The notes under the pieces were generated by a model. That model was not told the DNA's origin. It ran no database searches and saw only the letters and a program-made list of their open reading frames with translations. A stretch of DNA of 64,000 nucleotides from a virus. Its lineage: Duplodnaviria > Caudoviricetes. Made by a program: the position numbers and the translations under genes. The stretch lies in IMG/VR virus record IMGVR_UViG_2863283106_000001, positions 1 to 64,000 of that record, one strand, 5' to 3'. This document shows, piece by piece, positions 33,181 through 59,197 of the stretch; positions within the stretch are counted from its first letter, which is position 1, and each line of letters begins with the position of its first letter.

Positions 33181-34473
33181 TCAGCCGGTGGTCGGCGTGG
33201 TCCAGGTACCGATGACGAACGACTCCGGGCGGGGCACCTCCAGCGCGAGACGCTCGTCCGCGCGGAACGTGATCAAGCCCTGTTCGTAGTTCGTCCCGTT
33301 CTCCGAGGAGACGGTGACGGAGACGCTCTCTCGGTCGTGGAGCTGCGCGCCAAGACCGAACGCACCGATCAGGAAGTCGGTGTCGGACATCGCGGTCGTT
33401 TCGACGACGTTCAACCGCCAGACCTTCTTCTCGGCGCCGATGGCGACGGCGATGGCGACGCGGAAGGCGCCGTTCTTGTCCTCCTCGACCTCGACGTGCT
33501 CCCACATCGTCGGGGACAGGACGATGCCGGTGGGGTCGTACTCGGCGAGCAGGGCCTTGGTGATGGCGCGCCGGATCTGGACGCTGTACTGGTCGGTGGC
33601 CAGACCGGTGTACTGCTGAACCCCCGGCGTGTTGTAGATGCCGGTGATCGACTGGCCGTCGCCGACGGAGTGGAGGAGGTCCCAGTCCTCGGCGTACTTC
33701 ACGCCTTCGACCATGCGCGAATTCACGAAAGTCTTGAGCCGAGGCTCGTCCGACAGGATGTTCTTGTGGGCGTCGAGCAGGTGCGCAACCTCGGCGACCG
33801 GGTACATCACGGGCGTCAGCGTGAGCTTGGACCGCGGGGCCCGGCCCCAGGTGTCGGTCTCGGCGCCGGTCGCTGGCGACGTGCCGTCGGCGGCGTACCG
33901 CTCCTTGACCTGGCGGGCGTTGTTCGTCCAGCCGGTCTCTCGCGCGCCGTACAGGACGGCGTTCTTGGTGGTGGACTTCGGGAACAGGTCCCGGATGTGG
34001 AACTTCCGGAACGGCCGCTCGGCGATGCCCAGGTTCTGGGCGGAGCCGAGGACCTGGTGGGTCACCGTGCCGGCGGACAGGGAGAAGATGGACTTCCCCT
34101 CGATGTCGGCGCGGATGTACGGCTTGTCACGGAACCCGGCCTGCATGGCGTGCTTGTAGGAGTCGGACTCGACGAACAGGTCACCGAGCGACTTCTCCTC
34201 CATGCCGGGGCGCTGGCCGTAGTGGCTGGCCGCGGCCGGCGGCGCCTCCGGGGCGTCGAGGTACTGCTTGACCTCGGTCAGGTTCTGCTCGGCGTCGATG
34301 AGGGCCTTGATCTCCGCGGCTTCGCCGGAGACCTTGCGGAAGGCCTTGGCCTGCTCGCTGGAGACGACGAACTGTCCGCCGTCCTCGACCTTGAACGTCT
34401 GGCTGATGCGCTCGGCTTCGGCGGACTTCGCCTGGAGTGCCTTCTGCAGCTCCTGGATACGGCTGGTGGGCAT
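33181..34473 (-). CDS. Major capsid protein, HK97 family
   Basis: N-terminal coiled-coil delta region; HIRDLFP, AEVAHLL, EDWDLLHSVGDGQSITGI, IVLSPTMW, LITFRADERLALEVPRPESFV. Confidence 0.95.
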   Translation of the reverse strand: MPTSRIQELQKALQAKSAEAERISQTFKVEDGGQFVVSSEQAKAFRKVSGEAAEIKALIDAEQNLTEVKQYLDAPEAPPAAASHYGQRPGMEEKSLGDLFVESDSYKHAMQAGFRDKPYIRADIEGKSIFSLSAGTVTHQVLGSAQNLGIAERPFRKFHIRDLFPKSTTKNAVLYGARETGWTNNARQVKERYAADGTSPATGAETDTWGRAPRSKLTLTPVMYPVAEVAHLLDAHKNILSDEPRLKTFVNSRMVEGVKYAEDWDLLHSVGDGQSITGIYNTPGVQQYTGLATDQYSVQIRRAITKALLAEYDPTGIVLSPTMWEHVEVEEDKNGAFRVAIAVAIGAEKKVWRLNVVETTAMSDTDFLIGAFGLGAQLHDRESVSVTVSSENGTNYEQGLITFRADERLALEVPRPESFVIGTWTTPTTG

Positions 34474-34556
34474 TGGGGTGCTCTCCCTGATGCTGGGGTG
34501 CGGTTGACGTGCGTCGCTCGCCCGGCCAGCACCGGGACGCCTCAACGCGAGGCGGT

Positions 34557-34587
34557 ATGGAAGAGGGAGAGGGGTGTTAACGTCGCG
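34557..34587 (-). promoter_or_regulatory. Late-promoter-like motif upstream of capsid gene
   Basis: CGCGAC-GTTAAC upstream half is exact; downstream hexamer is degenerate. Confidence 0.55.
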
Positions 34588-34697
34588 CGCTGCCCGCTCG
34601 GGTAGTCAAGAGCGGGCAGCGCATGGAGTTTGACCTGCTGTTTTGTTGTCGGCGGCAGGGAAGGGTCGCCGGAATCGGGTGGGTTCTGGGGTGCAAC

Positions 34698-36653
34698 TCA
34701 GCTCTGCATCAGGGCGAGTGCGGCCTTCACCTCCTCCGCGTCCAGGCGGACGGTCTCGTCCTCCGGCGGGGCGGCCGCCCCCATGTCCTCGTCGTCTTCG
34801 TCGTCCCAGCTCGTGTCCTCGTCGCTCGTGTCCTCGTCGTCGCCGAAGGTGTCGTCGTCCCACAGGTCCAGTCCGACCGGGGCGGGCGCCGTCGGCCGGC
34901 GCGCGAACGTGGTGACGTCCCCCTCCTCGCTCTCGTCCTTGCCGGTGGCGACGTCCAGCCCCTTCGCGGACAGGGCCGCGATCAGCTCGCGCACCTTGTC
35001 GCGGACGCCTCCGAGCTGCTCCGGGCCGGCGGTGGTGCTGCTGACGCGGGCGGTGGCGTCAGTGAGTGCGTCGACGGTGGGCTGTACGACGCGCGCGTCG
35101 ACGTCCTCGTCTTCGGTGGCGGCACGGTGCGCGGTGGTGCCCTCCGGCACGACGATGGTGGCGAGCTCGACGGACTGCGGCTTGGACAGGGTGATGTCGC
35201 CGGCGGCCGTGACCGTGTACGGGATCGCGTAGTAGGCGCTGCGGCGTTCGTCTTCGGAGTGCACGGACACGATGACGCGGTCCGGGTAGGTGCCCTCGAT
35301 GCACGTCCACGTCTGGCCGTCTTGGTTGAGGAGCTCGCGGACCTTGTCGGAGAGCCGGGCGCGGAACTGTTCCTGAGACTCGGGCAGGGGCTTGGGGGAC
35401 ATCACGGGGGCCTCCAGGGGGGCATTCTTGGCCTCGGTGACCATGGATCGGGCGGACTTGTGCTCGATGCGCGGCAGAGCGCGGGCGGCCCGTACGGCGG
35501 CGCGCGCGGACTTCTCCTCGGTGGGGGCCACGCCGTTGCGGGTGGCCTTGAGGATGCCCTCGAGGATGTTCGGGGAGACAGGGCGGATCGGCTTCGGGGC
35601 CGGGCCCTGCGGGAGGGCCGCGCCGGCCAGGAGCTCCCACGGGGCTTCGCGGCACTCCGGCCGCAGGAGCGGCATGTCGGGCAGGGACGTGATCGGCCAC
35701 CAGGCGGTGACCTCGGTGGCGTCGCCCTTGGGGTCGTCGGGGTTGGCGACGCGGCGTTCTTCGCTGGGCTTGTTGATGGGAACGGACGCCTCGGTCGGAA
35801 CAACGGCAACATAGCCGCGGTAGATGCCGTTCGGGGCGACCCAGGTACCGACGATGCTCGCGGTGCCGGGCAGGGTCGAGCCGGTCTCCTCGCTCCACTC
35901 GCGCACTGCGGCGGCGAGGGAGTCCTCCCCGTCTTCCAGGTGTCCGCCGGGGAATTCCCAGGTGCCGGCGGCCGGGTCGTCGTCGTTGAGGGCGCGCTGG
36001 AGCATCAGCACGCGGCCGGTGTCGGCGGCTTTCACGACCAGGCCCGCAACCTTGACGCCCTTGCCTTCCGCGGGGGTGGCGACGTCGATCTCTACGTGGG
36101 AGGGCGTGGTCTTGTACTCGAGGCCCACGTGCCCGGCGGCGGACTTCACCTCAAGGCTGCGGGTCAGCGGGTGCGCGCCGTGCAGGACCGGGGAGACCTC
36201 GAACAGGTCCAGGTCGTGGATGACGCGGACGCCGTCGCCGCGGAGCGTTGCGCCTTCCGTCGGCACGCGGTAGCCGATGGAGAACGCGGCCTGCTGGTGC
36301 TCGTGCCACTGCTTGACCTGCTCGTAGGCGTCGCGGCCCTGCTGGGTGCGCAGGTTGTAGATCACGGTGGCGACGAGGGCGCCGGCCTCGGCGGGCCAGC
36401 CGGGGACGCTGGCGAATCGGGGGTCGCCGGGCCGCCACTCCTCGCACTCGATGACGACGCCGACGGGGTCCTTCCACCCGTGGTGCCAGACGGTTTTGAC
36501 GGGGCGGGAGGCCAGGGTGCGGGCGAAAGCACCGGGCACGATGAGGTCGTTTACCTCGTCGACCACGCCGGTGACGGCGTAGATAGCCCGGCTGGTGCCT
36601 CGCTGACTGGTGCTGGGGCGTGGGGATCTGATGGGTGGAGCAGCGCTCGGCAC
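34698..36653 (-). CDS. HK97-type prohead protease fused to a Nudix hydrolase and an acidic scaffold-like tail
   Basis: VVDEVNDLIVPGAF, VWHHGW, FSIGY, LDLFEVSPVLHGAHP; Nudix box GGHLEDGEDSLAAAVREWSEETG. Confidence 0.9.
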   Translation of the reverse strand: MPSAAPPIRSPRPSTSQRGTSRAIYAVTGVVDEVNDLIVPGAFARTLASRPVKTVWHHGWKDPVGVVIECEEWRPGDPRFASVPGWPAEAGALVATVIYNLRTQQGRDAYEQVKQWHEHQQAAFSIGYRVPTEGATLRGDGVRVIHDLDLFEVSPVLHGAHPLTRSLEVKSAAGHVGLEYKTTPSHVEIDVATPAEGKGVKVAGLVVKAADTGRVLMLQRALNDDDPAAGTWEFPGGHLEDGEDSLAAAVREWSEETGSTLPGTASIVGTWVAPNGIYRGYVAVVPTEASVPINKPSEERRVANPDDPKGDATEVTAWWPITSLPDMPLLRPECREAPWELLAGAALPQGPAPKPIRPVSPNILEGILKATRNGVAPTEEKSARAAVRAARALPRIEHKSARSMVTEAKNAPLEAPVMSPKPLPESQEQFRARLSDKVRELLNQDGQTWTCIEGTYPDRVIVSVHSEDERRSAYYAIPYTVTAAGDITLSKPQSVELATIVVPEGTTAHRAATEDEDVDARVVQPTVDALTDATARVSSTTAGPEQLGGVRDKVRELIAALSAKGLDVATGKDESEEGDVTTFARRPTAPAPVGLDLWDDDTFGDDEDTSDEDTSWDDEDDEDMGAAAPPEDETVRLDAEEVKAALALMQS

Positions 36654-36692: not shown

Positions 36693-36723
36693 ACCGTGCC
36701 GTTCGCGTCTGCCTAGTGTCCTG
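36693..36723 (-). promoter_or_regulatory. Late-promoter-like motif (variant)
   Basis: CAGGAC-ACTAG..(19 nt)-CACGGT. Confidence 0.5.
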
Positions 36724-36922
36724 TTCTGGGCGCCGACTGTTGCGGGTGCGCCTCAGCCTGGGAACGGGCTGCATTCCAGCCCCGGGTCCAGTAGCGGTAT
36801 CCGAACCGCTGTTCCTTGTCGCCGATGCGGTCGTACGGGCAGGCGTCGGAGGGGTCCCCCGCGGCGTATGCGGCCTTGCCCTCGTTGAATCGGACCAGGT
36901 AGGCCTGGCGGTCGAGCTGCAC
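36713..36922 (-). CDS. Rmf/CrpP-fold-like small protein
   Basis: EGKAAYAAG..ACPY..R..YWTRGWNAA resembles the G..AG..CPY..W..GW pattern of ribosome modulation factor. Confidence 0.6.
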   Translation of the reverse strand: MQLDRQAYLVRFNEGKAAYAAGDPSDACPYDRIGDKEQRFGYRYWTRGWNAARSQAEAHPQQSAPRTGH

Positions 36923-36934
36923 TCTCGGCTCTCC

Positions 36935-37558
36935 TTACTGGCCTTGGAACATCGAGTCCTGGACACCGCGGTCCCCCGGCGGTGCCGGGTCGGCCGGCGC
37001 CGCGGGGTCGGACGCAGCGTCCTCACCCTCGGGGCCGTGCGTGCGGGTCATCTGGGCGCCGTCCACGTCGGTCGCCCACGCGTCCGGGTCGGTGTACCGC
37101 CACACCTGTCCGGTCTCGTCGCGGACCCACCCGGTCAGTGTGCCGTCCGGAGCGCGGTCGAGCCAAGCCTGTTCGCCGTTGCTGCCGGTGTAGGCGCAGT
37201 ACGCGTCTTCGGGGGTGGTCTCGTCGCCCTCGTCGTACATGTCGCCGGCCCAGGGGCGGGAGTCGTCCTCGGGCGGTGCGGGGGCTGCGGCCGGGTCCTC
37301 GGCGTCGCCTGCCTCCTCCGGTGGCATGTCCGTGGCCGGGGGCGCCGCGGGATCGGCCGGTTCGGCGGTCGCGGCAGGATCCTCGGGCAGGTCCTCCGGG
37401 AGATCCTCGGAGGGCTCGCTGTCGGAAACGCCAGGCTCGGCGCCCTTGAGCGAGGCCTCTTCGGTGCCCTCGGTCTCCTCGTTCTCGTCGTCGTCTTCCT
37501 CCCCGAAAGGCTTGCCGCCCTGGGGGAGAGCCTTGATGGCGAATCCGTATCTGGTCAC
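36935..37558 (-). CDS. Acidic hypothetical head-region protein
   Basis: GTG 7 nt after promoter motif; Asp/Glu/Pro-rich N-half, Trp-rich C-terminal domain. Confidence 0.7.
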   Translation of the reverse strand: MTRYGFAIKALPQGGKPFGEEDDDENEETEGTEEASLKGAEPGVSDSEPSEDLPEDLPEDPAATAEPADPAAPPATDMPPEEAGDAEDPAAAPAPPEDDSRPWAGDMYDEGDETTPEDAYCAYTGSNGEQAWLDRAPDGTLTGWVRDETGQVWRYTDPDAWATDVDGAQMTRTHGPEGEDAASDPAAPADPAPPGDRGVQDSMFQGQ

Positions 37559-37950: not shown

Positions 37951-40900
37951 TTACCTCGTGGCCATCAGGCCCAGGAGGAACGCCCGCAGGTCGTCGTCCT
38001 GGTACCAGTCGCCGTTGAACATCGCCTGAACGGACCGGGCGAGACTGTCACCGGTGTCCGGTTGCGTCTGCTGCCGGCGCAGGAGCCGGTCCAGGGCGCT
38101 CGACCGCATACGGCGGGCGCCCGGCCGGCCCGTGTGGGTCCGGGTGAACCAGAACGCCCGCTGCGCCGCGTCCAGGTCCCCGATGTGCCGGGCGAGGTGC
38201 TGCGCCAGACCGTGCCCAGCGGTGCTCAGCCCCTCGTCGGCCAGGTCGGCGACCGTGATGCGCTGCCCGCTCGGCTCGTAGCGGCCCTCGTCGCCGTCCA
38301 CGGCCGTCACGCCGCGCACCGCGCCGGTGGCGAGCCACGACCGGGGAAGGACGCGCTGCACGCCCCGCACGGCCCGCTCGGCGTCCGGGGTGCTGTCCGG
38401 GCCGAACACGATGCCGGCGCTGCCGTCGGGGCCGACGTCGCGGATTTCGGCCAGGGCCGCGGCCACGGCGTCGGGCACCGCGGCCGCGTACCGGGCACGC
38501 AGGTCCGCGTACTCCCGGCGGGCGGTCGACAGCTCCATGCGGGCCGCGTCGATCTCGATCTCGAGGTCGGGGTCATCCGGGATGGTCGCGCTGCTACGGG
38601 CCGCCTGCAGGTTGACCAGACGCCGCTCGCTGGTGGCGACGTAGTCGTCGGCGTGCTGCAGCGTGACGTGCGGGTCGTCCCCGAAGTCGTCCCCGAGGAC
38701 CGCGGCCAGGCGGCGGGTGACGTCCTGGTCGACGTCGCCGCCGGCCGCCCGCAGGGCCGCCATGTGGCGAAGCGCGGCCAGGCCGGGGCCGCCGTCGGCC
38801 GCCCGGTCCGGCGCCCACTGGATCCGGTCCGACATCCCCGGGAGGCGGCCCGCGGCGAGCTGCCCCCACGTCGTCGGCCGCCAGAGGGTGACCCGGCGCT
38901 GCGCCTGCCCGAACCGGCCCGGCTCCGGCATCAGACCGGCCCAGTGGGAGATCCGGCCGGCGAGCGAGCCACCGTCCGTGTCAGGCAGGTTCACCGCACG
39001 GTGCAGGCGGGCCAGTCGCCGGGACTCCGGCCACTGCCTCACCCGGCGGACCAGGCGCCCGAGGAATGCCCGCAGGCGGCGCAGACGCTCACGCGCCGAC
39101 CGGTACTTCTCGGCGATCTTCCGGGCGCCGGCCTTCACCAGCAGTGCCAGGCGCTTGGCCAGGCGGATGAGGAAGGCGACGATCCGGGCGAGGAGGCCCG
39201 GCTGCCGGGCGGCCTCCGGGGACGCTGCGGCAATCCGGCGGGCGATCCGGCGGGCGGTGGCCTGCCGGGATCCGTCGAGCTGCCGGGTGACGATACGGGC
39301 GATCCGCTCGGCGTCGCCCGGGTCGACGCCGGCGGCCTGGAGTTGCTGCAGGAGCGCGTTCATCGCGTCGTCGACGTGCCCCGTGACCGCCCGCGCGACG
39401 TCGGGGTCGGCATCCGGGTCCGTTGCCGTGCGCGCGTCGGCGACTTGGCCGGGGATGAGGCGCAGGAGGTCCCGGGCGCGGGCCGCCAGGTCCTCGTTGC
39501 TCTCGCCGGGGAGCGGCTCGAGGTCGTTGATGGTGCGCAGGGCCGCCCGCACGGTGTCCGTGTGGGCCTGTTCCCGGGTGTCACGGAGGGTCTGCTGTGC
39601 GGCGTCTCGGTCGCTGCCGGTGATGCCCGCGGCGTCGAGGGCATCGGCGCCGTCACGGCTGGTTTCGTCCCGGACGTTGCGCAGAGCCTCGGGGGTGAGG
39701 CGCTGGGCGATCTGCTCGCGCAGGGCGTGGATGTCTCCGGGCGGCTCCGTGCCCGCGACAGCTTCGCCGATGATGCGGGCGGCGAGGCTGCGGGCCTGGT
39801 CGCTGGCGATCCGGTCGGTGCTGGACTGCGGGGTCGGGTTGGGGTCGCGGAGCTCTCCGACTGGCGGGAGGGCCGGGGTGGGCCGGTTCCGGTCGTAGAC
39901 GTTCACGGCGCGGCCGGCGTGCAGGCCGAAGTCGTGGACGTTGCCGTCCTCGTCCATGCCGGTGAGCTGCATCCACCATCCGTTGCGGTGGGGTGCGCTG
40001 ATGATCGTCAGGCGACGGTGGCCGTTGAACTGGTAGCCGGCCCGGCTGACGGGGGCGTCAATGACGTCACCGGCGCGGAGGTTGCCGGGGCGGACCTGGG
40101 CGATGGGCACGGACGGCTCGTCGGGGACGGCCGCGGCCGGGGCGTTCCCGGTGTCCGGGCCGGAGGGGTCGGTGTCGTCGTCTCCGTCGGTGGTGTCGGC
40201 GTCCGGGGCGGGGGCGCCCGCCGCGGGGGCCGGGCCGGGGGCCGGGGTGCTCGGCGCCGCGGAGGCCGGGGTGCTCGGCGCCGCGGAGGCCGAAGGCTCG
40301 TCACCCATGTCCGGGGTGACCACCAGGCGATCCCGGTTCCCCACGAACCACTCCACGGCCCGCCGCGGCCGGCCAGCGACCAGCACGGTCTCGGCGAGGA
40401 GACCGCCCAACAGCTCATAGCGGACCGTGGCGGTCGGGCCGCCGGCGATCCCCACGAGCTCCACCGTCACCCATCGGCCGCTCACATCGACGGCCTCAAT
40501 ACGGCGCGTGTACCAGCCCCCGTCCGAATGGCCGTTACCCACCACCAGGTGCTGCCCCGGCTGGAGCTTCGAGGCCTGCACCGCCATGGTGCCCTCCTGG
40601 TCCAGGGCCCGGCCCGGCCCGTCCGCGGCGGGAGTCTCCACCACCTCGAAGCCTTCGCTGCTGCCTACGGTGGCGCTCATGAACCTCCCGTCATGGCCGA
40701 CGAGACGGAGCTGAACCGTCCTGCGATCCTCGCTGCGCTGCGCCTCAGCCACCAGCATCCGGCGCTGTTCGCCGTTGACGGGCACGCTCACCACTTCACC
40801 GATACTGAGGTAGCGGGCCTCAACCCTCATGCGCGGCGCGCTGTCCTCCCCCTGGCCGTCACCCTGAGCGGGCGGCTCCGGAGGTGCAGGGTGCGCTTCG

Positions 40901-49900: not shown

Positions 49901-52900
49901 ATGAGCATGGTTTCGTCGCCCGGGTTGATCTCCCCGATGTGGGAGTTCTTGCGGTCCCAGCCCTTGAGGCGCATCCGGGAGCCGACCAGCCGCAGGAACC
50001 GGTTACCGGCGTCGGCGACAGCGTCACCGAAGCGGAACGTCTGGGTGAGGGTGGCCGTGGCGTCTGCGGGGAGCCGCCCCAGGGCGTCCGTGGCGCCCCG
50101 GAAGCCGTAGATGGCCTGGTTGGAGTCACCGACCGCGACGACCTGGATGCCGGCGGCGCGGATGTTGCGGACGATGCCCTCCATGACCGGGTTCACGTCC
50201 TGCGCTTCGTCCCAGAACAGAACATCGGTGTCCGGCACCCTGCGGGACAGTGCCCACATCTTGACGGGGTGGTCGAACGACAGGGGCAGGTCGCGGTCCT
50301 TGTTCTTCGCCTTCGGGTCGGTGAGGTTGGCCCACATCTGCTCGGCGAGCGGCTTGACCGCCGCGAACACGGCCGCCCGGTTGCGGAGCTCCTCGGGCAG
50401 GTGGTGCTCGGCGAAGTCGTCGTCGTCGGACTTGACCCACGCGGAGAGCAGTTCGTTGGCGTAGTGTGCGGCCCGGCGCGGGGACAGCGAGTCGCCGCCG
50501 GCCTGGATCGGCTCGTACCAGCGCATGCGGTCGGCGAGCTGCTGATCGTTGAGGCGCGGCCACTTCAACCGCTCGAGCAGGTCCTTGTCGACCATGCTGT
50601 TCGCGTACGCGTTGGCCGTGGTCGGGGTGAGATTCTTCCCGTATTCGCCGCGCTGCTGCGACTCGATCGCCTCATCGGCCACGGACCGGTTGAACGCCAG
50701 GTACAGGATCCGCTTGTTCGGCATGCGCCGGGACAGCATCTTGAGCGTCGTGGACTTGCCGGTGCCAGCGAGCGCCATGACACGCATGTCCAGGCCGCGG
50801 CGGGCGGCGCCCTCGATGATGACCCGCTGCTCGTCGGTGGGCGGGTACGCCTCGCCGGCGGACGCCTGGGCCTCGATCCGCTCCCAGTCGGCGTCCGAGT
50901 AGCCTCCGGGCTTCGCGGGCGGCAGCTCGTCCACGCTGGAAACGGCGCCGCGGGCCTCGTCCTGGTTCAGGCCGTACCCGCCGACGCGGTCGAGGAGGAT
51001 GCTGCCGCGGGACGGCTCGACCAGCTTGCCGTCCTTGTCGTACTCCGGTTCCCGCTCCCAGCGGTCGGCTTCCTCCCGCTGCAGCGCCCACAGCCGGCGC
51101 TCAGCGCGCAGCCGGTACGCCAGTTCCAGCGGGTCGGTGGACTCCTCCAGGGCGCGGGTGACGTCCTCCAGGCCGTCGACCTCGTTCTCGATCTCCTCGG
51201 CGCTCATGTCGGCCGGTTCGCGGTCGCCGATCGGGTCGGTGCTGCCCGCCTCGCCCTCCGGCTGCGGGGCTGGCGGCTGGTTCACAGTGCCCGCGGCGGG
51301 GGTGTCGCTCTCCGGGGTCTCCGGAGCGCTGTTCTCCGGCGCCTCGGGCGCGTCCGTGGCCGGGGCGTCACCTTCGGGGGCCTCCGGCGCGTCCGTGTCC
51401 GGCACCTCGGGCGCGGCCTCGTCCGGGTACAGCACCCGCACCTCGACATCGGACGGGAGCAGGTGCTCCTTGCCGTCTTCGTCGACGACCAGGACGCGAC
51501 CGCGACCGGTGAGCACGGGCTTCCGCGCCACGGTGCGCGCGCGGCCTCCGCTGTCCAGGAACCGGTCCCCGGACTCCAGGTCCATGGGCGCGCGAAGCTG
51601 TGCCTCCCGGAGGTTGGTGGTGTCGCGTCCCTCGGCGTCCGCGAACATGTCGGGGGTGCCGAACTCGTCGGCGGCCCGGTCGTCGGGGTTGTTCAGGTCC
51701 GCGGCCCTGTTCGGCCCGGTGTTGGCCGGCTGGTCGACGTCGAACAGGCCGCCCGGCTCCTCCACGGGCTGCTTCGGCTTCGGCTTCGGTTCCTGCTTCG
51801 GCTTGCGGCCGGCGCGGCGGGCCTCCTCCGCCTCGAGGACCTGCATGCGGGTGCGGTCGGCGCCAGACAGCTCCCCGGCCATGTCCCGCTCCATCAGGGC
51901 GACGATCTCTTCGCGGATCTCCGGGTCCGTCATGGTGGACGGGGCCTTGGAGCCTTCCGGGCGTATCGCGTCGAGCTGTTCGGACACCTCGTCGGGCGAC
52001 ATGCTGACGGTGCCGTCACCATCACCGCCGTCACCACTGCCGTCGGCGTCATCGGTGCCGTCGGCGTCATCGGTGCCGTCGGCGTCATCGGTGCCGTCGG
52101 CGTCCGGCGCCTGCGTGTCCTTCTCTCTCTGCGCGCGGCGTTCCCGCAGTTCAGCCGCAGCCTGGTCAACGCGCTTGGTGTAGGTGTTGTACGCCCGAAC
52201 CTCATCCGGGTCGGACTCCAGGCCCTCGCCGCCCGCCATCGTCCACGCCCACTCGAGGAGAGCGCGGTGGACCTCGACCGGCCCGGTCACCCTGAGCGTG
52301 CCGTTGCGGCCCTTCTTGGCCTCCTTGAGGGCCTTCCGGGTGTCCGGGTCCTCCATCGCCGCGGTCTCTTCCGTGCTGAGGAAGTCGGCGAGGGCCTCCG
52401 GCATGGTCAGGGTGATGAAGTCCTCGGGCTTGTCCCACGCGTAGCGCAGTGGCTCATCCGCCGGCTCCGAGTTGTTGCGGTTGTTGTCGCTCTCGCGGCG
52501 CGCGAGTTCGGCCTCGACGTCGGTCAGGCGCTGCTTACGGATCTTGGTGATCTCGTCGGTCTCGTATGACGGGCGAGCGCTGGCGAGCTCAGCCCGCTCG
52601 GCATTGAGCTGCTCGGTGTCGAGATCGGCGACCGGCGGCCGCGCCTGCAGTTCCTGCGCGCGCTGCTGTGCCTGTGCCGCGGTCTCCTTCTTCCGCCTGG
52701 CCTCCCGGATCGCTCGGGCGTCGGCTTCGAACCGGTCGGCGTTGGCGTCGAGGCGGTCATCGAGCTGCAGCAGTGCCCGCTGCAGGTCTTGGTCGAGACT
52801 CTCGGTGTCCAGGCCCTCGAGGGCGGCAAGAGCGCCACGCATCGCGTCCGCGTTCTGCTGGTAGCCCTCGGGGCCCTTCGGGGCGTCCGTAACGTTCTGC

Positions 52901-55119: not shown

Positions 55120-55126
55120 GCCGCGG

Positions 55127-55157
55127 ACCATGCACAGTGCAGGTGGTTAGCGTCGCG
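55127..55157 (-). promoter_or_regulatory. Late-promoter-like motif, leaderless, for the giant gene
   Basis: CGCGAC-GCTAAC..(19 nt)-CATGGT, 7 nt before ATG. Confidence 0.72.
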
Positions 55158-55437: not shown

Positions 55438-55793
55438 GGGGACTCCTTGGCGGCGGGGACGGGGCGGGGACCGGTGCCGTCGTAGGGAGCGGCGTGACCG
55501 GCGTCGAGGAGGGCGCTGTTCAGGGATGCGCCGTCGGCGGCCGTGATCGTGGCGAGCCAGCGGCCGTATTTCTCTTTGTGGTGGGTCCGCACCACCAGGC
55601 CCGGGGCGTGCTGGGTGAACCAGTCGGCGGCCCACGCCTTGGCGGCCTTGCCCTCGGGGGTGTTCTTCTCCGGCGTGTTCAGCCCGAGGAGGCGGACGCG
55701 CTGGCGGGTGCTGATCCCGAAGCCGAGGTCGATGTTCAGGTCGTAGGTGTCGGCGTCGACCAGGTGCTGGAGCGTGGCGGGGTAGATGTTCAC
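55434..55793 (-). CDS. Thermonuclease (SNase-like) family protein
   Basis: LVDADTYDLNIDLGF..RVRLLGLNTPE..KEKYGRWLA..LNSALLDAGHAAPYDG. Confidence 0.88.
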   Translation of the reverse strand: MNIYPATLQHLVDADTYDLNIDLGFGISTRQRVRLLGLNTPEKNTPEGKAAKAWAADWFTQHAPGLVVRTHHKEKYGRWLATITAADGASLNSALLDAGHAAPYDGTGPRPVPAAKESP

Positions 55794-55794
55794 G

Positions 55795-58278
55795 TCAGCT
55801 CACCTCTTCGTCCGTGGCGTAGTGGAGGCGGCATCGGCAGTTGATCGTCAGCGCGAGCGGCGCGAAGGGGTCGCCGGGATACCGGAGCTGGGCGCCGTCG
55901 ATCTGGTAGGGGGTGCCGGCGGGCAGGGTCTTGCCGTGCAGTGCCTTGTGCGCGGGCCGGACGCGGTCGTCCCGGCGGGTGACCCAGGTGCGGACGACGT
56001 CGGGGCCAGCGCTCTCCGCCGCGGCGTCCGCGGCCCCGTTGATGGTGGCGACGGCACACGTCTCGGCAGTCCGGGCCACCAGGGCGGGCACGGCCGCGTT
56101 GTAGTAGCCGCCCACTGTGTGCACGAGGGTGTCGAGGTCAAGGTCTGAGTCGTTGTCCTGCGTCTCCCGCAGCACTTCGGCGAGCTCGCCGAGGAAGGCG
56201 GTGATGGCTTCGCCGGCGTACATCGCGGTGACGAGCGCGGCCGCGGCCACGGCCGGGGGCACCGTGTCCGTACCGGTGAGGGCCTGGCTCAGCTTGCGGG
56301 CGGTGGCGGTGGCGGCGCGCTGCAGGATCGGGGCGAGGGTGTTGGTGGTCTCCTCTGCCCAGCGGGCGGCGGACACGACACGGTCCTCGTCGATGTTCGC
56401 GTCGCCGCCGCGGGTGTCGTGTTCGTTTTCCGGCTCCCAGAACCGGGTGTACTTGCGGGTCTTCGGGGCGCGGAGCCGGGCGACGATGACGCCCTCCTGC
56501 CGTGCCAGAAGCGCGGTGAGGGCCGCCTGCACGGCCATGGCCAGGGCGTCGAAATCGGCGTCGGTGACCTCGAACCCGTCCCGCGGGAGTGCCTTAGTCT
56601 CGATCGGGGCGCGCGCGTTCTCGACGTCCTCGGCCGCGGGCCCGGAGTCGGGCTGCATGCGGGTGGCGCGGGCGCGCGCGACGTCGTCGGCCGCATCTCC
56701 GGGGAGTGCGTCGGTGCTCTCGGCGCGGGCCGCCGCGACGTCGTCCGCGGCGGTCGCCGCCGGTCCGGCCGGCAGCTCGAGGGGCGCCTGCCCGCGGGCT
56801 GCGGCGACGTCGTCCGCTGCGGTCGGGGACGTCTCGAGTGCGCGGGCTGTGGCGACGTCCGCGGCGGCGGGCCCGTCTCCGGGGGCCGGGGGCAGCGCCG
56901 CGGCGGGGTCGGCCCCAAGGCCACCGTCAAGGGCGGGGTCGCCACCGAGGCCGGGGTCAGGGGCGAGTCCGAGGGCGGCCGCGTCCTGGTCGTTGGCCGG
57001 TACGGGCGCCTTCTGCGGGCTGATCCACAGCGCGCGGGACTGGGGGGTGTTGAACGGCCGGCGCTTGGCGATCTCCCGGTACTCGTCGATGGTGATCAGC
57101 CCGGCCTCGAACTCCTTGCGGGCTTCCTCGCGGGCCTGGCGGCGGGGGAACTCCAGGGCCTGGACCTGGGAGGTGTCGAACCGGATCACCCAGTCGTCGG
57201 ACAGGTCTGGGTCGAACGCCGAGGCGATCAGGTTGAGGTGGGGCAGCTCGGTGTGTGCCCAGAAGTTCCACTCTTCGCGGTCGGCGTTGTTGAACGTCCG
57301 CTCGCTGGCGTTGCCGATGACGGACTCGTACACGCCGAACGCGGAGAGGATCTCGTTCTTGGCGGTGCTGGCCAGCGTCTCGTATGCCATCTCCCGCGGG
57401 CGGGCGGAGGTGTCCACGTAGGTGACGCCGCCGGGGCCGGTGCCGACGAGGGTGAGCTGGCCGGCGTTGTGTGCGCCTGGGGCGAGGCGCCGTTGGATCC
57501 GTTCGACTTCGGCGGAGTCGACGCCGTCCAGGTCGATACCGACAATGCCGCCCGGTCTGCCGTCATTGTCGATAAATGAGATGTTGTAGGTGCGGGCCTT
57601 GACGTCCAGGTCGACGGACAGGCCGGCGGCCTCGAGCGGGGTCACGCCGCAGAACGGATCGGTGGGGTGCGGGTCGCGCAGCCAGATCACTTTCTCCGGC
57701 TTGAGCTCCCGGATGTGTCCGGCGTAGTCCGTGAACTCGAAATGCTTGATGTAGTCGGCGTTCCGGTCGTCCGGGATGATCTGGACGCGGTCCGGTGGCA
57801 GCAGGTCAAGCCTGACCAGGACTCCGCCGCGGCTGTACGTCTTCTCGATGAACACACCCTTCTTGCTGAGCAGCAACTGGGCGCTGAGTCGCTTTTTGAA
57901 GACGTCGCCGGTCTCGAGGGGGTTGGCCCGCTTGTTCAGCAGCCGCAGCAGCGGGTGGTCCTCGAGGGTCTCCTCGAACTCCCGCTCGTCGCCGCCGCGG
58001 CCGATCTGTATGGGCAGGGTAGAGGCGTGCTTGCTGATCGCCTCGACGCTCTTGAAGGTCCAGATGCTGCGCTCGTAGCCCTCGATGACGACGCGCTCGA
58101 GGTCCCAGCCGTCCGCGCGGCCGGGGGTGCCCCAGACGTTGGTGACGCCGGCGTACGACATCGATGTGTAGACGCCGCCCCCGGCGAGGAGGTCCTTCGT
58201 CTCCACGGGTGGGGGTGGCGGCTCGACCGTTCGGGGGGCGAGGAGGCCGCGGAGCGTGGGGAGGAACTGGCGGGGCAT
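55795..58278 (-). CDS. Portal protein fused to C-terminal MuF (head morphogenesis) domain
   Basis: HPLLRLLNKRANP, LDLLPPDRV, FCGVTPLEAA, FIDNDGRPGGIV, GLITIDEYRE; C-terminal RTWVTRRDDRVRPAH..YPGDP..INCRC. Confidence 0.92.
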   Translation of the reverse strand: MPRQFLPTLRGLLAPRTVEPPPPPVETKDLLAGGGVYTSMSYAGVTNVWGTPGRADGWDLERVVIEGYERSIWTFKSVEAISKHASTLPIQIGRGGDEREFEETLEDHPLLRLLNKRANPLETGDVFKKRLSAQLLLSKKGVFIEKTYSRGGVLVRLDLLPPDRVQIIPDDRNADYIKHFEFTDYAGHIRELKPEKVIWLRDPHPTDPFCGVTPLEAAGLSVDLDVKARTYNISFIDNDGRPGGIVGIDLDGVDSAEVERIQRRLAPGAHNAGQLTLVGTGPGGVTYVDTSARPREMAYETLASTAKNEILSAFGVYESVIGNASERTFNNADREEWNFWAHTELPHLNLIASAFDPDLSDDWVIRFDTSQVQALEFPRRQAREEARKEFEAGLITIDEYREIAKRRPFNTPQSRALWISPQKAPVPANDQDAAALGLAPDPGLGGDPALDGGLGADPAAALPPAPGDGPAAADVATARALETSPTAADDVAAARGQAPLELPAGPAATAADDVAAARAESTDALPGDAADDVARARATRMQPDSGPAAEDVENARAPIETKALPRDGFEVTDADFDALAMAVQAALTALLARQEGVIVARLRAPKTRKYTRFWEPENEHDTRGGDANIDEDRVVSAARWAEETTNTLAPILQRAATATARKLSQALTGTDTVPPAVAAAALVTAMYAGEAITAFLGELAEVLRETQDNDSDLDLDTLVHTVGGYYNAAVPALVARTAETCAVATINGAADAAAESAGPDVVRTWVTRRDDRVRPAHKALHGKTLPAGTPYQIDGAQLRYPGDPFAPLALTINCRCRLHYATDEEVS

Positions 58279-58622
58279 CAGGCCCCCTCAGACTCGTGGG
58301 TGGCGAGCCAGAGGCCGGCCGCGGTGACGGCGAGGGCGATGTAGAGCCAGCCCGCGGGCGCGTACAGCACGAACGCGCACGCGGTGACGCCGCTGTACCC
58401 GACTCCGCAGACTGCCCAGCGCAGGACGTGCACGCGGCGTGGGGCGTCGGGCTTGGGGGTGATCAGCCAGCCCGCGACGATGAGCCCGATCATGACGGCG
58501 TTCAGGGCCGCAGCCCAGTGGAGTGCGCCCAGCGCCACGAGGACACCGAGCACGCCGAGAGCGGTGAGGCACAGGCCGGCGGCTTCGCGGGCGAGCGCCC
58601 TGGGGGTTCGCTGAGTAGTCAC
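58278..58622 (-). CDS. Membrane protein preceding portal
   Basis: Four hydrophobic segments; TGATG coupling with portal. Confidence 0.72.
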   Translation of the reverse strand: MTTQRTPRALAREAAGLCLTALGVLGVLVALGALHWAAALNAVMIGLIVAGWLITPKPDAPRRVHVLRWAVCGVGYSGVTACAFVLYAPAGWLYIALAVTAAGLWLATHESEGA

Positions 58623-58629
58623 GCCGCGC

Positions 58630-58660
58630 ACCATGAACAGCGTGCGGCGTTAGTGTCGCG
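58630..58660 (-). promoter_or_regulatory. Late-promoter-like motif, leaderless, for the portal operon
   Basis: CGCGAC-ACTAAC..(19 nt)-CATGGT, 7 nt before GTG. Confidence 0.72.
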
Positions 58661-58663
58661 TGC

Positions 58664-59197
58664 TCAGCGCTTGGGGCGGGACACCCCCGACACGTACGCG
58701 CCGATGCCGCGCCGGTTGATCCTGCCGCCGGGGATGATCCTGGCGTTCGCGGGCGGGACAGGGATCTTCCGCTTCGCTCGCTTGGACTGGTCCCCGCCGA
58801 TCAGGTGCGTGTTGTCGATCTTCGCGGCGCAGTCGTCGCCTCGAACCTCGTCGTACGGGCGGCGGCAACCCTTGCAATACACCTCGAGTGCGTCGACGCG
58901 CTGCCCTTCGGTGGTCTTGAAGCTGCCCCGGAAGTCAGCGACGCGCGCGATCTTCGGAGTCACCTCGATCTCGGCGGCCACGACCCACACGTGGGAGAGG
59001 TCCGGTTTCTGCTCCGGCGCGGGCGGAGCCGGGGGTACTTCGGGGGCGGGCTCCTCGAGCGTCTTCGTTTCAGCCGCGGGCGCGGGCGGCTCCGGGGCCG
59101 GGCTGGGGGCCGGCTCGGGGGCGAGCCAGGCGAACAGGCTCTCCTGCAGATGGGAGCGGCCGGTCTCGGGCGAGAGGGGGGCTGTCGCTGTCGTCAC
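58664..59197 (-). CDS. Hypothetical protein with possible Zn site
   Basis: RBS GGAGG; HVW..YCKGCRRPY..DC..THLIGG; basic C-terminus. Confidence 0.7.
   Translation of the reverse strand: MTTATAPLSPETGRSHLQESLFAWLAPEPAPSPAPEPPAPAAETKTLEEPAPEVPPAPPAPEQKPDLSHVWVVAAEIEVTPKIARVADFRGSFKTTEGQRVDALEVYCKGCRRPYDEVRGDDCAAKIDNTHLIGGDQSKRAKRKIPVPPANARIIPGGRINRRGIGAYVSGVSRPKR

What the first reader, a model, noticed from the sequence alone, without database searches (positions are those of the whole stretch)
33181..59197. Candidate protease-processed capsid-cargo system: an E-x-K-[S/A/T/D] motif marks domain borders in capsid, protease-Nudix, portal-MuF and the giant helicase protein
Seen: capsid MEEK-SLG and IEGK-SIF at the end of the delta region; protease LEVK-S and LEYK-T just before the Nudix domain and TEEK-S and IEHK-S just after it; portal VETK-D at the N-terminus and IETK-A between the linker and the MuF-bearing region; giant protein LEVK-A about 20 aa from its start; AETK-T in the 58664-59197 protein; AIK-A at the start of the 36935-37558 protein. 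Known: the HK97 protease cuts its capsid protein after Lys (TFNK/SLG). Inference: the prohead protease cuts these polyproteins, releasing a free Nudix hydrolase, a MuF protein and a mature giant helicase protein inside the head for delivery with the DNA, in the manner of P1 DarA/DarB but with different parts.
Basis: partly seen in the sequence, partly recalled or inferred. Interest (0 to 1): 0.85.

Follow-up and report, generated by a model that had tools for sequence, protein, structure and literature searches.

The report
Protease cut-site code in a phage head
A large Streptomyces phage carries one short, strictly conserved Glu-x-Lys motif at the borders of its capsid scaffold, of an enzyme built into its head protease, of its portal-MuF fusion and at the start of a giant helicase protein, which most likely marks where the head protease frees proteins that travel inside the virus particle.

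Summary
The motif is real, enriched and conserved. In capsid, protease-Nudix and portal-MuF (1908 aa) E-x-K-[SATD] occurs 10 times against 1.7 expected (0 of 5000 shuffles). In 26 other ORFs it occurs 6 times against 5.7.

Glu and Lys are invariant at three capsid sites in 121 of 121 homologues. They also hold after the protease domain and around the Nudix domain, at both portal sites (25 of 25 and 23 of 23), and at the giant protein's N-terminus (100 of 106).

- In relatives the Nudix domain is replaced by a 2H phosphoesterase, or joined by extra modules. Each module is flanked by the motif.
- The sites lie in predicted disordered linkers.
- The giant proteins avoid hydrophobic-E-x-K about tenfold. 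Non-head proteins do not.

The capsid site IEGK|S aligns with the HK97 maturation cut.

Best reading: the S78 prohead protease cuts after Lys, releasing cargo inside the head. No proteomic proof exists, and delivery into the host is inferred. Two listed sites are not supported: AIK-A and AETK-T.

The closest isolate is Streptomyces phage Gilgamesh.

The parts
33181..34473 (-). Major capsid protein (430 aa from Met), HK97 fold with an N-terminal delta (scaffold) region of about 127 aa
   Evidence: PF05065 E 5e-28. phrog_10. Matches HK97 and D3 capsid chains. 93% identical to Gilgamesh gp53.
34303..34317 (-). Capsid delta-region site A-A-E-I-K56|A
   Evidence: Glu and Lys are 121 of 121 in the capsid family. 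P1' is G, S, A or Q.
34189..34203 (-). Capsid site M-E-E-K94|S-L-G, at the border between the variable delta end and the conserved segment
   Evidence: Glu 121/121, Lys 121/121, Ser 113/121. P2 varies (E, V, A, G, Q) and the upstream residues vary. Cantare has MEAK|SLG at the same place.
34090..34104 (-). Capsid site I-E-G-K127|S-I-F, the predicted mature N-terminus
   Evidence: E, G, K and S are each 121/121. The site aligns within about 2 residues of HK97 K103|S104 and about 3 of the D3 mature start at 114.
34698..36653 (-). Prohead serine protease (S78) fused to a Nudix hydrolase and a C-terminal domain with an acidic tail (651 aa)
   Evidence: PF04586 and PF00293. H58 and S125 are invariant in 103 sequences. 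AlphaFold gives folded blocks at 17-170, 200-350 and 425-500. 76% identical to Gilgamesh gp52.
36141..36155 (-). Site L-E-V-K170|S at the end of the protease domain
   Evidence: E168 and K170 are invariant in 103 sequences. An E-x-K within 20 aa of the SPVLHG anchor is present in 110 of 110 parsed homologues.
36108..36122 (-). Site L-E-Y-K181|T in the linker before the Nudix domain
   Evidence: E179 and K181 are invariant in 103 sequences. It lies in the pLDDT<50 segment 173-196.
35604..36056 (-). Nudix hydrolase domain (aa about 200-350), the cargo slot
   Evidence: PF00293, 57.9 bits. The acidic residues E243, E252, E255 and E256 plus R251 and G258 are nearly invariant, and G237 is invariant. 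Foldseek top hits are ADP-ribose pyrophosphatases at E 1e-6. A 2H phosphoesterase takes this slot in 15 of 120 listed relatives.
35508..35522 (-). Site T-E-E-K381|S after the Nudix domain
   Evidence: E379 and K381 are at least 90% conserved in 103 sequences, while the preceding segment is not alignable. pLDDT is below 50.
35454..35468 (-). Site I-E-H-K399|S
   Evidence: E397, H398, K399 and S400 are at least 90% conserved. It is kept in 16 of 16 close relatives, one of which has Q in place of E.
35424..35438 (-).
   Evidence: K409 is invariant, and E407 and A408 are at least 90% conserved. Extra modules in relatives are inserted right after this site.
34722..34736 (-). Site E-E-V-K643|A, eight residues from the C-terminus
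   Evidence: E641, V642 and K643 are at least 90% conserved. An E-x-K lies in the last 16 aa in 105 of 110 parsed homologues. It sits in the predicted C-terminal helix 639-650.
36935..37558 (-). Acidic, Pro-rich protein with M-T-R-Y-G-F-A-I-K9|A-L-P. A doubtful member of the set.
   Evidence: FAIK-ALP occurs in 14 of 15 and SYKALP in 1. There is no Glu at P3. No Pfam or PHROG match.
37951..55131 (-). Giant 5726-aa polyvalent-type protein. It has a conserved N-terminal 330 aa, a variable middle and a conserved C-terminal part of about 2500 aa.
   Evidence: Only the UvrD helicase is found by Pfam. Length and module variation of 3912-5726 aa in relatives. 124 homologues of the N-terminal region, some with N6-MTase plus SNF2.
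55051..55065 (-). Giant protein N-terminal site L-E-V-K26|A, ending a propeptide of about 26 aa
   Evidence: Of 106 homologues with an N-terminus, 100 have E-x-K, 5 have Q-x-K and 1 has no Lys. In the first parse, which found 95 of them, the site lay 6 residues before the conserved NPALHPR in 90. Residues 1-36 have pLDDT below 50.
49147..50787 (-). UvrD-like superfamily 1 helicase module of the giant protein (aa 1449-1995)
   Evidence: PF00580 E 1.5e-12 and PF13361 E 2e-6.
55795..58278 (-). Portal protein fused to a MuF-like domain (827 aa). Portal is aa 75-403, the linker about 430-565 and MuF 688-818.
   Evidence: PF04860 E 1e-42. PF04233 at 29.2 bits against a cut-off of 29.6. phrog_2662 E 1e-78 over aa 47-825. 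Gilgamesh gp46 is annotated 'portal and MuF-like fusion protein'.
58192..58206 (-). Portal N-terminal site V-E-T-K28|D
   Evidence: An E-x-K lies within the first 22-38 residues in 25 of 25 portal homologues. In two divergent ones it has moved: LEEK|S and VEVK|T.
56590..56604 (-). Portal/MuF junction site I-E-T-K562|A-L-P
   Evidence: E-x-K is present in 23 of 23 full-length homologues, within a variable Ala/Pro/Asp-rich linker.
59060..59074 (-). A-E-T-K45|T in the 58664-59197 protein. Weak, and probably not part of the system.
   Evidence: E-x-K is kept in 7 of 11 homologues, within a low-complexity Pro/Ala stretch. No family match.

Best explanation
The window holds the head module of a Gilgamesh-like temperate Streptomyces phage of about 125-130 kb. 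Several relatives are annotated as plasmids.

Its HK97-type (S78) prohead serine protease most likely cuts after Lys in the motif (hydrophobic)-Glu-x-Lys | Ser/Ala/Thr/Asp. The same motif is written into every protein that is built into the prohead.

Proposed sequence of events:
1. The capsid protein assembles through its 127-aa delta region. The protease enters as a fusion carrying a Nudix hydrolase and a C-terminal domain. Twelve portal-MuF fusions form the portal. The giant helicase protein enters through its N-terminal part.
2. The activated protease cuts the delta region at K56, K94 and K127, leaving a capsid protein that starts at Ser128. This is the position of the HK97 cut.
3. The protease cuts itself at K170 and K181 and at K381, K399 and K409. 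This frees a folded Nudix enzyme of about 200 aa that is too large to leave the shell. It also trims its own C-terminal helix at K643.
4. It removes 28 residues from the portal and severs MuF at K562.
5. It removes a propeptide of about 26 aa from the giant protein.
6. The freed Nudix (a 2H phosphoesterase in relatives), MuF and the giant protein stay in the head and are probably expelled with the DNA to act early in infection.

What is shown: the genes, the motif, its conservation, its placement in linkers, the module swapping and the motif avoidance.

What is inferred: cleavage itself, retention in the head, ejection and the enzymes' targets.
For: - **Enrichment in head proteins only.** 10 hits against 1.7 expected (0 of 5000 shuffles). 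Other ORFs give 6 against 5.7.
- **Selection on Glu and Lys specifically.** At the capsid site x-E-x-K|S, Glu and Lys are 121/121 while P2 is E, V, A, G or Q and P4 is M, L, T, I or P.
- **Position.** IEGK127|S aligns within about 2 residues of the HK97 K103|S104 cut, and HK97 also has Lys|Ser there.
- **Modularity.**
  - Of the 120 listed protease homologues, 15 carry a 2H phosphoesterase in place of Nudix. Others add an 85-aa domain or a Cys-rich module. Each module is flanked by E-x-K-[S/A/T].
  - Two of the 2H variants appear to lie on the same 125-126 kb contigs as capsids 81-84% identical to this one, judged by matching organism label and contig length.
  - Between the protease and C-terminal domains there are 573 E-x-K against 94 expected, and 547 of 573 are followed by S, A or T.
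- **Accessibility.** The sites lie in pLDDT<50 linkers (173-196 and 355-415) between folded blocks with pLDDT around 90. The giant protein's site lies in the disordered residues 1-36.
- **Portal.** The N-terminal site is present in 25/25 and has moved rather than been lost in two divergent sequences. The junction site is present in 23/23.
- **Giant protein.** 100 of 106 have E-x-K and 5 have Q-x-K at a fixed place.
- **Avoidance.**
  - In 120 giant-protein bodies (592,535 aa) hydrophobic-E-x-K occurs 8 times against 149 expected. With Asp in place of Glu it occurs 332 times against 218.
  - Counted as distinct 13-mers, the figures are 8 against 70.
  - Four of the eight have Pro after the Lys, and only two are followed by a small residue.
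  - In 245 non-head ORFs of the same elements the figure is 32 against 20.
- **Distant relatives.** Cantare, GMA6 and ChisanaKitsune (capsids 33-35% identical) carry the motif at the delta border and after the protease domain. Cantare gp11 has IEEK|A at residues 14-18.
- **Protease and Nudix look active.** H58 and S125 are invariant, and the conserved Nudix acidic residues are kept.
- **Precedents.**
  - SPN3US: short N-terminal propeptides, a portal propeptide and a protease C-terminal propeptide, all cut at one motif (PMC10052503, passages).
  - P1: darB lies beside the portal and protease genes, and its N-terminal 30 residues target a protein to the head (PMC9024508, abstract and passages).
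Against: - No call shows a cleaved protein. There are no proteomic or N-terminal data for this phage group. A search for Gilgamesh papers returned 0.
- The motif was defined after looking at the sequence.
- The homologues are related, so the counts are not independent events. The viral and genome loci may overlap.
- HK97's own site, TFNK|S, has no Glu, so the Glu requirement has no experimental precedent in this protease family.
- P1' is Asp, Asn, Val or Glu at some sites, so either P1' is loose or those sites are not cut.
- A conserved linker could serve another purpose.
- Several control patterns are also depleted in the giant proteins, for example hydrophobic-Q-x-K-[SAT] at 0.12 of expectation and x-E-K patterns at 0.2-0.3. 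This is because their lysines cluster in charged patches. The Glu-against-Asp contrast is the cleaner measure.
- Nothing tests whether the freed proteins are ejected.
Confidence: 0.66

Rival explanations
1. Cleavage is real but serves only clearance, as in HK97. The protease destroys the scaffold region and itself, and the Nudix (or 2H), MuF and giant proteins are not delivered to the next host. They would act in the producing cell or inside the prohead, or stay behind as structural or inert passengers.
For: [quoted passage not shown] That the HK97 protease also cuts itself up is recalled, not from a call. No call bears on ejection. Gilgamesh also encodes a separate free MutT-like enzyme, gp43.
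Against: - A folded domain of about 200 aa should not escape a closed shell.
- The slot is swapped between two nucleotide-cleaving enzyme families. The Nudix module also occurs between portal and MuF in Arthrobacter phage Sonali. This fits a cargo under arms-race selection.
- MuF and polyvalent proteins are held to be head-delivered (PMC5512222, passages).
Confidence: 0.2
2. The motif is not a cleavage site. It would be a conserved flexible joint or docking peptide, for example a repeated E-x-K-S-A-R-x-x-V cassette that binds the capsid interior or eases recombinational module exchange, and the fusions would stay intact in the virion.
For: The sites around the cargo form a repeated cassette of about 15 aa (E-x-K-S-A-R-A-A-V-x-A-A-R and I-E-H-K-S-A-R-x-x-V-x-E-A-K) that recurs beside every inserted module. 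Such cassettes could be recombination joints.
Against: - The same Glu-x-Lys occurs without the cassette at the capsid delta border, where cleavage is the rule for HK97-type capsids, and at the position of the HK97 cut.
- Only Glu and Lys are invariant there.
- A docking or joint role does not explain the roughly tenfold avoidance of the motif inside the giant proteins, which is absent from non-head proteins.
Confidence: 0.1
3. Chance or composition: Glu-x-Lys-small is simply frequent in these Glu-rich, Ala/Ser-rich linkers.
For: The motif is short and was chosen after the fact. The linkers are of low complexity.
Against: No shuffle of 5000 reaches the observed count. Glu and Lys are invariant across 121 capsids, 103 proteases and 25 portals. 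Lys makes up only about 2% of these proteins.
Confidence: 0.01

Closest known systems
HK97 prohead maturation (gp4 S78 protease, gp5 capsid protein with delta domain)
   Same: Same protease family (PF04586) and the same capsid fold with an N-terminal scaffold region. The protease gene lies directly upstream of the capsid gene. The predicted final cut is Lys|Ser at the aligned position.
   Different: HK97's site, TFNK|S, lacks the Glu. The HK97 protease is 225 aa with no enzyme inserted, and HK97 has no portal-MuF fusion or giant head protein.
T4 gp21 and phiKZ/SPN3US gp245 prohead proteases with propeptide-bearing internal or ejection proteins
   Same: One protease motif is shared by the capsid, the portal, the protease itself and the packaged proteins. 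There are short N-terminal propeptides of 20-24 aa, several cuts within long propeptides and a C-terminal cut in the protease (PMC10052503, passages).
   Different: The protease family differs here, and so does the motif. That the T4/phiKZ enzymes cut after Glu is recalled, not read in a call. Here the cut follows Lys with Glu at P3. Here one cargo enzyme is part of the protease polypeptide itself.
P1 Dar system (DarB with N-terminal capsid-targeting signal)
   Same: A very large nucleic-acid enzyme encoded beside the portal and protease genes. In P1 the N-terminal 30 residues suffice for head targeting (PMC9024508). Relatives of this giant protein carry the N6-methylase plus SNF2 helicase pair.
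   Different: This window's protein shows only a UvrD-type helicase. I did not search for DarA, Hdf or DdrB homologues, and none appeared in the family scans I ran. A protease-motif end to the signal is predicted here and was not seen in the P1 passages I read.
Polyvalent proteins and MuF or portal effector fusions (Iyer et al. 2017)
   Same: Multi-domain giant proteins of phages with a portal-terminase system that are predicted to be packaged. 2H and other enzymes are fused to MuF or portal. Giant actinomycete proteins with UvrD-like helicases are mentioned (PMC5512222, passages).
   Different: That paper proposes processing by built-in zincin-like metallopeptidase domains. In the passages I read, the prohead protease is not proposed as the processing enzyme, and no protease-cargo fusion or shared Glu-x-Lys motif is described. 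I could not see the supplements.
Streptomyces phage Gilgamesh (MN234216)
   Same: Same gene order, with 76% (protease-Nudix) and 93% (capsid) identity. All motif sites are present.
   Different: Its giant protein is 4624 aa. gp52 is annotated only as 'hydrolase' and gp48 as hypothetical. No paper was found.

Membership tests
HK97-type prohead serine protease (MEROPS S78, Pfam PF04586) | Profile match above the curated cut-off | tested here: met
   PF04586 scores 37.9 bits against a cut-off of 21. phrog_80 head maturation protease at E 9e-19.
HK97-type prohead serine protease (MEROPS S78, Pfam PF04586) | Conserved His and Ser of the catalytic pair | tested here: met
   H58 and S125 are invariant in 103 aligned homologues. 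That these are the catalytic residues rests on recalled knowledge of HK97 gp4.
HK97-type prohead serine protease (MEROPS S78, Pfam PF04586) | Gene directly upstream of an HK97-fold capsid gene that has an N-terminal delta region | tested here: met
   Protease at 34698-36653 and capsid at 33181-34473, both on the minus strand. The capsid aligns to HK97 gp5 from the N-arm onward, with about 127 extra N-terminal residues.
HK97-type prohead serine protease (MEROPS S78, Pfam PF04586) | Cuts the capsid protein at the delta/N-arm border | not testable with these tools
   Only the aligned position and the Lys|Ser identity with HK97 could be shown.
Nudix hydrolase (PF00293) | Profile match and an intact Nudix box | tested here: met
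   57.9 bits against a cut-off of 21.1. G237 is invariant. E243, R251, E252, E255, E256 and G258 are at least 90% conserved. Nudix folds top the Foldseek list.
MuF-like head protein (PF04233) | Profile match | tested here: inconclusive
   29.2 bits against a cut-off of 29.6. However, phrog_2662, phrog_859 and phrog_2468 cover aa 733-825, and Gilgamesh gp46 is annotated as a portal-MuF fusion.
Polyvalent protein / P1 DarB-like packaged enzyme | Many-domain giant protein encoded in a phage head module | tested here: met
   5726 aa, encoded between the portal-MuF and protease genes. The middle part is modular in relatives.
Polyvalent protein / P1 DarB-like packaged enzyme | N6-adenine methylase plus SF2 helicase pair | tested here: not met
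   This protein shows only the UvrD (SF1) helicase. Relatives P0244 and P0264 have N6_Mtase plus SNF2.
Polyvalent protein / P1 DarB-like packaged enzyme | Presence in the virion and N-terminal targeting signal | not testable with these tools
   The support is indirect: the conserved N-terminal propeptide-like segment and the motif avoidance.
T4/phiKZ-type propeptide (capsid-targeting sequence) system | T4 gp21-type protease cutting after Glu | tested here: not met
   The protease here is S78 and the conserved P1 residue is Lys. The system works like that one but is not a member.

The most novel reading that the evidence does not exclude
The prohead protease of these phages has been turned into a self-unloading delivery vehicle.

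- Its polypeptide holds an exchangeable cargo slot (Nudix, 2H phosphoesterase or further small modules) bracketed by its own Glu-x-Lys cut sites. Each head would then be loaded with tens of copies of a nucleotide-signal-destroying enzyme that enter the host with the DNA.
- The same code removes a targeting propeptide from a 4000-6000-aa DarB-like protein and unhooks MuF from the portal.
- The code would let any protein be addressed to, and released inside, a Streptomyces phage head.
Probability: 0.4. Interest if true: 0.8.

Novelty: new variant of a known kind. Interest (0 to 1): 0.66.

Why it matters
If the motif is the protease's recognition code, it links four things that have so far been treated apart: capsid maturation, portal-MuF fusions, enzyme domains fused to head proteins, and giant polyvalent proteins.

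- It gives testable mature N-termini for a whole group of large Streptomyces phages and phage-plasmids. 124 giant-protein homologues were found, and 430 capsid homologues, of which the best 120 were examined.
- The motif avoidance is sequence-only evidence that a 620-kDa protein is exposed to the prohead protease, and therefore packaged.
- The Nudix and 2H exchange in one slot points to pre-loaded enzymes against nucleotide-based host defence.
- The predicted propeptide and cut code could be used to load foreign proteins into phage heads.

An isolate, Gilgamesh on S. lividans, exists for direct tests.

Tried and rejected
- **No terminase.** I suspected the element lacked one, because none lies next to the portal and PF03354 and PF03237 found none in the record. 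Rejected: a homologue 74% identical to Gilgamesh TerL lies at 77540-79297 of the record, and a TerS homologue lies at window 2101-2739.
- **Internal cuts in the giant protein.** I looked for motif sites at its internal domain borders and found none that are conserved.
- **D3 as a second experimental reference.** It uses a ClpP-type protease and has no E-x-K, so it is not comparable.
- **Arthrobacter phage Sonali.** It has Nudix between portal and MuF but a different small protease and no E-x-K flanks. The motif is therefore specific to this protease lineage.
- **Composition-based expectation for avoidance.** This proved unreliable because the lysines cluster, and several control patterns were also depleted. 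I replaced it with the P3 table, distinct contexts and a non-head control.
- **The 85-aa extra domain and the giant N-terminal 300 aa.** Neither has a Pfam match.
- **Literature searches that found nothing on point:**
  - T5 pb11/pb8 cleavage: 0 papers.
  - Gilgamesh: 0 papers.
  - Maturation protease plus Nudix fusion: 2 papers, unrelated judging by title and abstract start.
  - Portal-MuF proteolysis: nothing relevant among the 12 listed of 119.
- **Unavailable sources.** I did not use complex prediction, read-mapping or the RNA tools.

Full report
**What the region is.** The window is the first 64 kb of a 112,518-bp virus record classed as a provirus. It is about 70% G+C. Coordinates 12-59 kb hold a minus-strand structural module.

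Reading in the direction of transcription, the head part is:
- a 177-aa protein (58664-59197);
- a membrane protein (58278-58634);
- portal fused to MuF (55795-58278);
- a staphylococcal-nuclease-like gene (55434-55793);
- a 5726-aa protein (37951-55131);
- a small ORF;
- an acidic 207-aa protein (36935-37558);
- a 73-aa RMF-like ORF (36713-36934);
- an S78 prohead protease fused to a Nudix hydrolase (34698-36653);
- the HK97-fold capsid protein (33181-34473).

These assignments rest.

The closest isolate is Streptomyces phage Gilgamesh (129 kb, host S. lividans). It has the same order, with 76% (protease-Nudix) and 93% (capsid) identity. There the protease fusion is annotated only as 'hydrolase' and the giant gene as hypothetical. 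The large terminase lies far from the portal, at 77.5 kb of the record, as in Gilgamesh. Capsid homologues sit mostly on 120-135 kb Streptomyces contigs, and some are labelled plasmid.

E-x-K-[SATD] occurs 10 times in capsid, protease-Nudix and portal-MuF together (1908 aa). Shuffling gives 1.70, and 0 of 5000 shuffles reach 10. With a hydrophobic residue in front it occurs 7 times against 0.41. The 26 other ORFs of the window (9563 aa) give 6 against 5.7 and 2 against 1.3. The giant protein as a whole is not enriched, at 2 against 3.2. Only its N-terminal site fits.

Because the motif was chosen after the fact, I put the weight on relatives.

**Conservation.**

*Capsid.* I aligned this capsid with the best 120 of 430 capsid hits (62-92% identical).
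- Glu and Lys are 121/121 at A-x-E-[ILV]-K56.
- They are 121/121 at x-E-x-K94|S. There Ser is 113/121, P2 is E, V, A, G or Q, and the residues upstream vary freely.
- E-G-K127-S is 121/121.
- A fourth E-x-K (TEVKQ) is not conserved and serves as an internal negative.

*Capsid position.* IEGK127|S aligns within about 2 residues of HK97 K103|S104 and about 3 of the mature start of D3. HK97 itself reads TFNK|SLGS, so the Lys|Ser is shared but the Glu is not.

*Protease fusion.*
- E168, K170, E179, K181 and K409 are invariant in 103 sequences.
- E379, K381, E397-S400 and E641-K643 are at least 90% conserved.

*Portal.* All 25 sequences have an E-x-K in the first 22-38 residues. In the two most divergent it has moved rather than been lost (LEEK|S, VEVK|T). 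All 23 full-length sequences have one at the portal/MuF junction.

*Giant protein.* Of 106 homologues whose N-terminus is in the called protein, 100 have E-x-K, 5 have Q-x-K and 1 has no Lys. In the first parse, which found 95 of them, the site lay 6 residues before the invariant NPALHPRDSKGRF in 90. Fourteen further proteins start downstream of the anchor and were set aside.

*Sites that do not fit.* FAIK9|A in the acidic protein is conserved (14 of 15) but has no Glu. AETK|T in the 58664 protein is kept as E-x-K in 7 of 11. I do not count these two.

**Modules.** This is the most telling result. Among the 120 listed protease homologues (of 681 hits), 15 have a 2H phosphoesterase (PF13563/PF02834) exactly where this protein has Nudix.
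- Two of the 2H variants appear to lie on the same 125-126 kb contigs as capsids 81-84% identical to this one, judged by matching organism label and contig length.
- Other homologues carry an additional 85-aa domain without a Pfam match, or a Cys-rich module.
- Every module, whatever its kind, is bracketed by E-x-K-[S/A/T]. Often this sits in a repeated cassette, E-x-K-S-A-R-x-x-V...I-E-H-K-S-A-R-x-x-V-x-E-A-K.

In the 110 homologues that my anchors could parse (10 were dropped because the C-domain anchor did not match), the region between the protease and C-terminal domains holds 573 E-x-K against 94 expected. Of these, 547 are followed by S, A or T.

A Nudix module 50% identical to this one lies between portal and MuF in Arthrobacter phage Sonali. 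That phage has another kind of protease and no E-x-K flanks. Nudix is therefore a recurrent head-borne module, while the motif belongs to this protease lineage.

Three distant actinophage myoviruses (capsids 33-35% identical) were also checked.
- At the delta border, Cantare has MEAK|SLG and ChisanaKitsune has EEAK|S. GMA6 has Q in place of Glu at that first site and E-x-K at the second.
- All three have E-x-K-[S/A/D] just after the protease domain.
- Cantare gp11, a 1040-aa protein between portal and protease, has IEEK|A at residues 14-18.

**Accessibility.** AlphaFold2 on the 103-sequence alignment gives three confident blocks: protease 17-170, Nudix 200-350 and an alpha/beta domain 425-500. 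These are followed by a helical hairpin, an acidic disordered tail and a C-terminal helix at 639-650.

The segments with pLDDT below 50 are 173-196 and most of 355-415. They hold LEYK181, EEK381, IEHK399 and EAK409. LEVK170 ends the last protease strand. In the giant protein, residues 1-36 are below 50 (from only 9 sequences).

**Avoidance.** If a protease cuts at this motif, proteins that sit with it in the prohead should avoid the motif in their bodies.

| Set | Pattern | Observed | Expected |
|---|---|---|---|
| 120 giant bodies (592,535 aa, first 60 residues removed) | hydrophobic-E-x-K | 8 | 149 |
| same | hydrophobic-D-x-K | 332 | 218 |
| same | E-x-K-[SAT] | 34 | 223 |
| same, distinct 13-mers | hydrophobic-E-x-K | 8 | 70 |
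| same, distinct 13-mers | hydrophobic-D-x-K | 138 | 102 |
| 245 non-head ORFs (69,605 aa) | hydrophobic-E-x-K | 32 | 20 |

The distinct 13-mer count damps the effect of relatedness. Of the eight remaining hits, four have Pro after the Lys, two have Arg, and only two are followed by a small residue.

A caveat: simple composition-based expectations mislead here because the lysines cluster in charged patches. Several control patterns are also low. The Glu-against-Asp contrast and the non-head control are the measures I rely on.

Gln at P3 is also depleted, at 0.14-0.17 of expectation before S/A/T. This agrees with Q-x-K replacing E-x-K in five N-terminal sites.

**Mechanism.** The most likely reading (0.66) is that the S78 protease cuts after Lys in (hydrophobic)-E-x-K|(S/A/T/D). 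H58 and S125 are invariant.
- It degrades the delta region at three places, leaving Ser128 as the mature capsid N-terminus.
- It cuts itself free of the Nudix domain on both sides.
- It trims its own C-terminal helix.
- It removes 28 residues from the portal and severs MuF.
- It removes about 26 residues from the giant protein.

The D3 paper's introduction gives about 60 protease copies per HK97 prohead. If the number here is similar, tens of Nudix molecules would be enclosed. A folded domain of about 200 aa should not leave the shell.

That these proteins then enter the host with the DNA, and that Nudix or 2H destroy nucleotide signals of host defence, is inference. It rests on the polyvalent-protein and MuF literature (PMC5512222, passages) and on the exchange of two nucleotide-cleaving families in one slot. 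The top structural neighbours of the Nudix domain are ADP-ribose pyrophosphatases, but the discrimination among Nudix families is weak.

**Comparison with what is known.** The logic is that of T4 and of phiKZ/SPN3US. In SPN3US one protease motif marks short (20-24 aa) and long N-terminal propeptides of head and ejection proteins, the portal, and a C-terminal piece of the protease (PMC10052503, passages).

It is also the logic of P1, where darB lies beside the portal and protease genes and its first 30 residues suffice for head targeting (PMC9024508, abstract and passages). Relatives of the giant protein carry the DarB-like N6-methylase plus SNF2 pair. This window's copy shows only a UvrD-type helicase.

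The differences are these:
- an HK97-type S78 protease;
- Lys at P1 with Glu at P3;
- a cargo enzyme embedded in the protease polypeptide itself, in an exchangeable slot;
- a portal-MuF fusion predicted to be unhooked by the same code.

I found no paper on Gilgamesh, nor on protease-Nudix fusions of this kind or portal-MuF cleavage. The polyvalent-protein paper proposes built-in metallopeptidases, not the prohead protease, in the passages I read. Its supplements, and those of the other papers, could not be seen and may hold related architectures.

**Verdict.** It is unproven for delivery, and it is wrong or doubtful for two of the eleven sites. I class it as a new variant of a known kind.

Noticed in passing
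window 56600-56990 (portal aa about 430-560): The portal-MuF linker holds four to five copies of a short repeat, roughly P-x-A-A-x-D-V-x-x-A-R. The last copy runs straight into the junction site (A-A-E-D-V-E-N-A-R-A-P-I-E-T-K|A). A similar V-x-x-A-R-A-x-P-x-I-E-x-K stretch precedes IEHK399 in the protease fusion. This suggests an extended recognition or spacer element.
   Followed up: partly
window 36713-36934 (-): A 73-aa ORF between the acidic protein and the protease matches ribosome modulation factor weakly (PF04957, E 7e-4, below the cut-off). The Gilgamesh counterpart gp51 is annotated 'ribosome modulation factor'. This is an odd gene to find inside a head module.
   Followed up: no
G000 77540-79297 (outside the window) and window 2101-2739 (-): The large terminase gene lies about 19 kb from the portal gene, and the small terminase gene lies at the other side of the structural module. 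This matches Gilgamesh, where TerL is gene 1 and TerS is gene 85. Neither PF03354 nor PF03237 detects this TerL.
   Followed up: partly
whole record; relatives: Homologous elements sit on 120-135 kb contigs, several labelled plasmid. Gilgamesh encodes ParA, ParB, an FtsK-like translocase and two integrases. The record also has an FtsK/SpoIIIE-like gene (72957-75002) and an integrase (64709-65884). The group may be phage-plasmids rather than integrated prophages.
   Followed up: no
window 27498-28085 (-): A second, stand-alone MuF-like piece lies among the head-tail connector genes. It has PHROG head-morphogenesis and portal-MuF hits (E 1.6e-9) over aa 59-130, and Gilgamesh gp61 is annotated 'minor capsid protein'.
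   Followed up: no
window 31576-32838 (-): A 420-aa protein directly downstream of the capsid gene matches phrog_284 'exonuclease' (E 2e-55). By gene order it corresponds to Gilgamesh gp55, which is annotated metallophosphoesterase. I did not align the two. This is another enzyme gene inside the head module that could be a packaged protein. It has no E-x-K-[SATD] hit.
   Followed up: no
window 59356-61726 (-): Upstream of the head module lie a Mur-ligase C-terminal fragment, a C39-like peptidase and a D-Ala-D-Ala ligase-like gene. Gilgamesh has a thymidylate kinase and a MutT-like gene at the corresponding place, so this is a variable cargo region.
   Followed up: no
window 20815-24924 (-), aa 1137: The tape measure protein has one strict motif hit (IEVK|T) about 230 residues from its C-terminus. 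Its conservation was not checked. Tape measure proteins of some phages are trimmed near the C-terminus.
   Followed up: no
relatives P0195, P0222, P0226, P0238; loci L012-L014 and L016-L018: An 85-aa domain without a Pfam match (G-G-x-D-x-N-R-G-x-A-E-Q-L-R-H-W-Y...C-N-L-R-H...Y-P-A-T-H-A-A) is inserted in the protease fusion of many relatives, between two motif sites. Its function is unknown. This window lacks it.
   Followed up: partly
window 1-100: The window starts inside a direct repeat of about 45 bp (CCCGAGCAGTCGCAGGCCCCCGCCCCGGAGAAGCCGGCC...), seen. It probably encodes a Pro/Ala/Glu-rich protein repeat.
   Followed up: no
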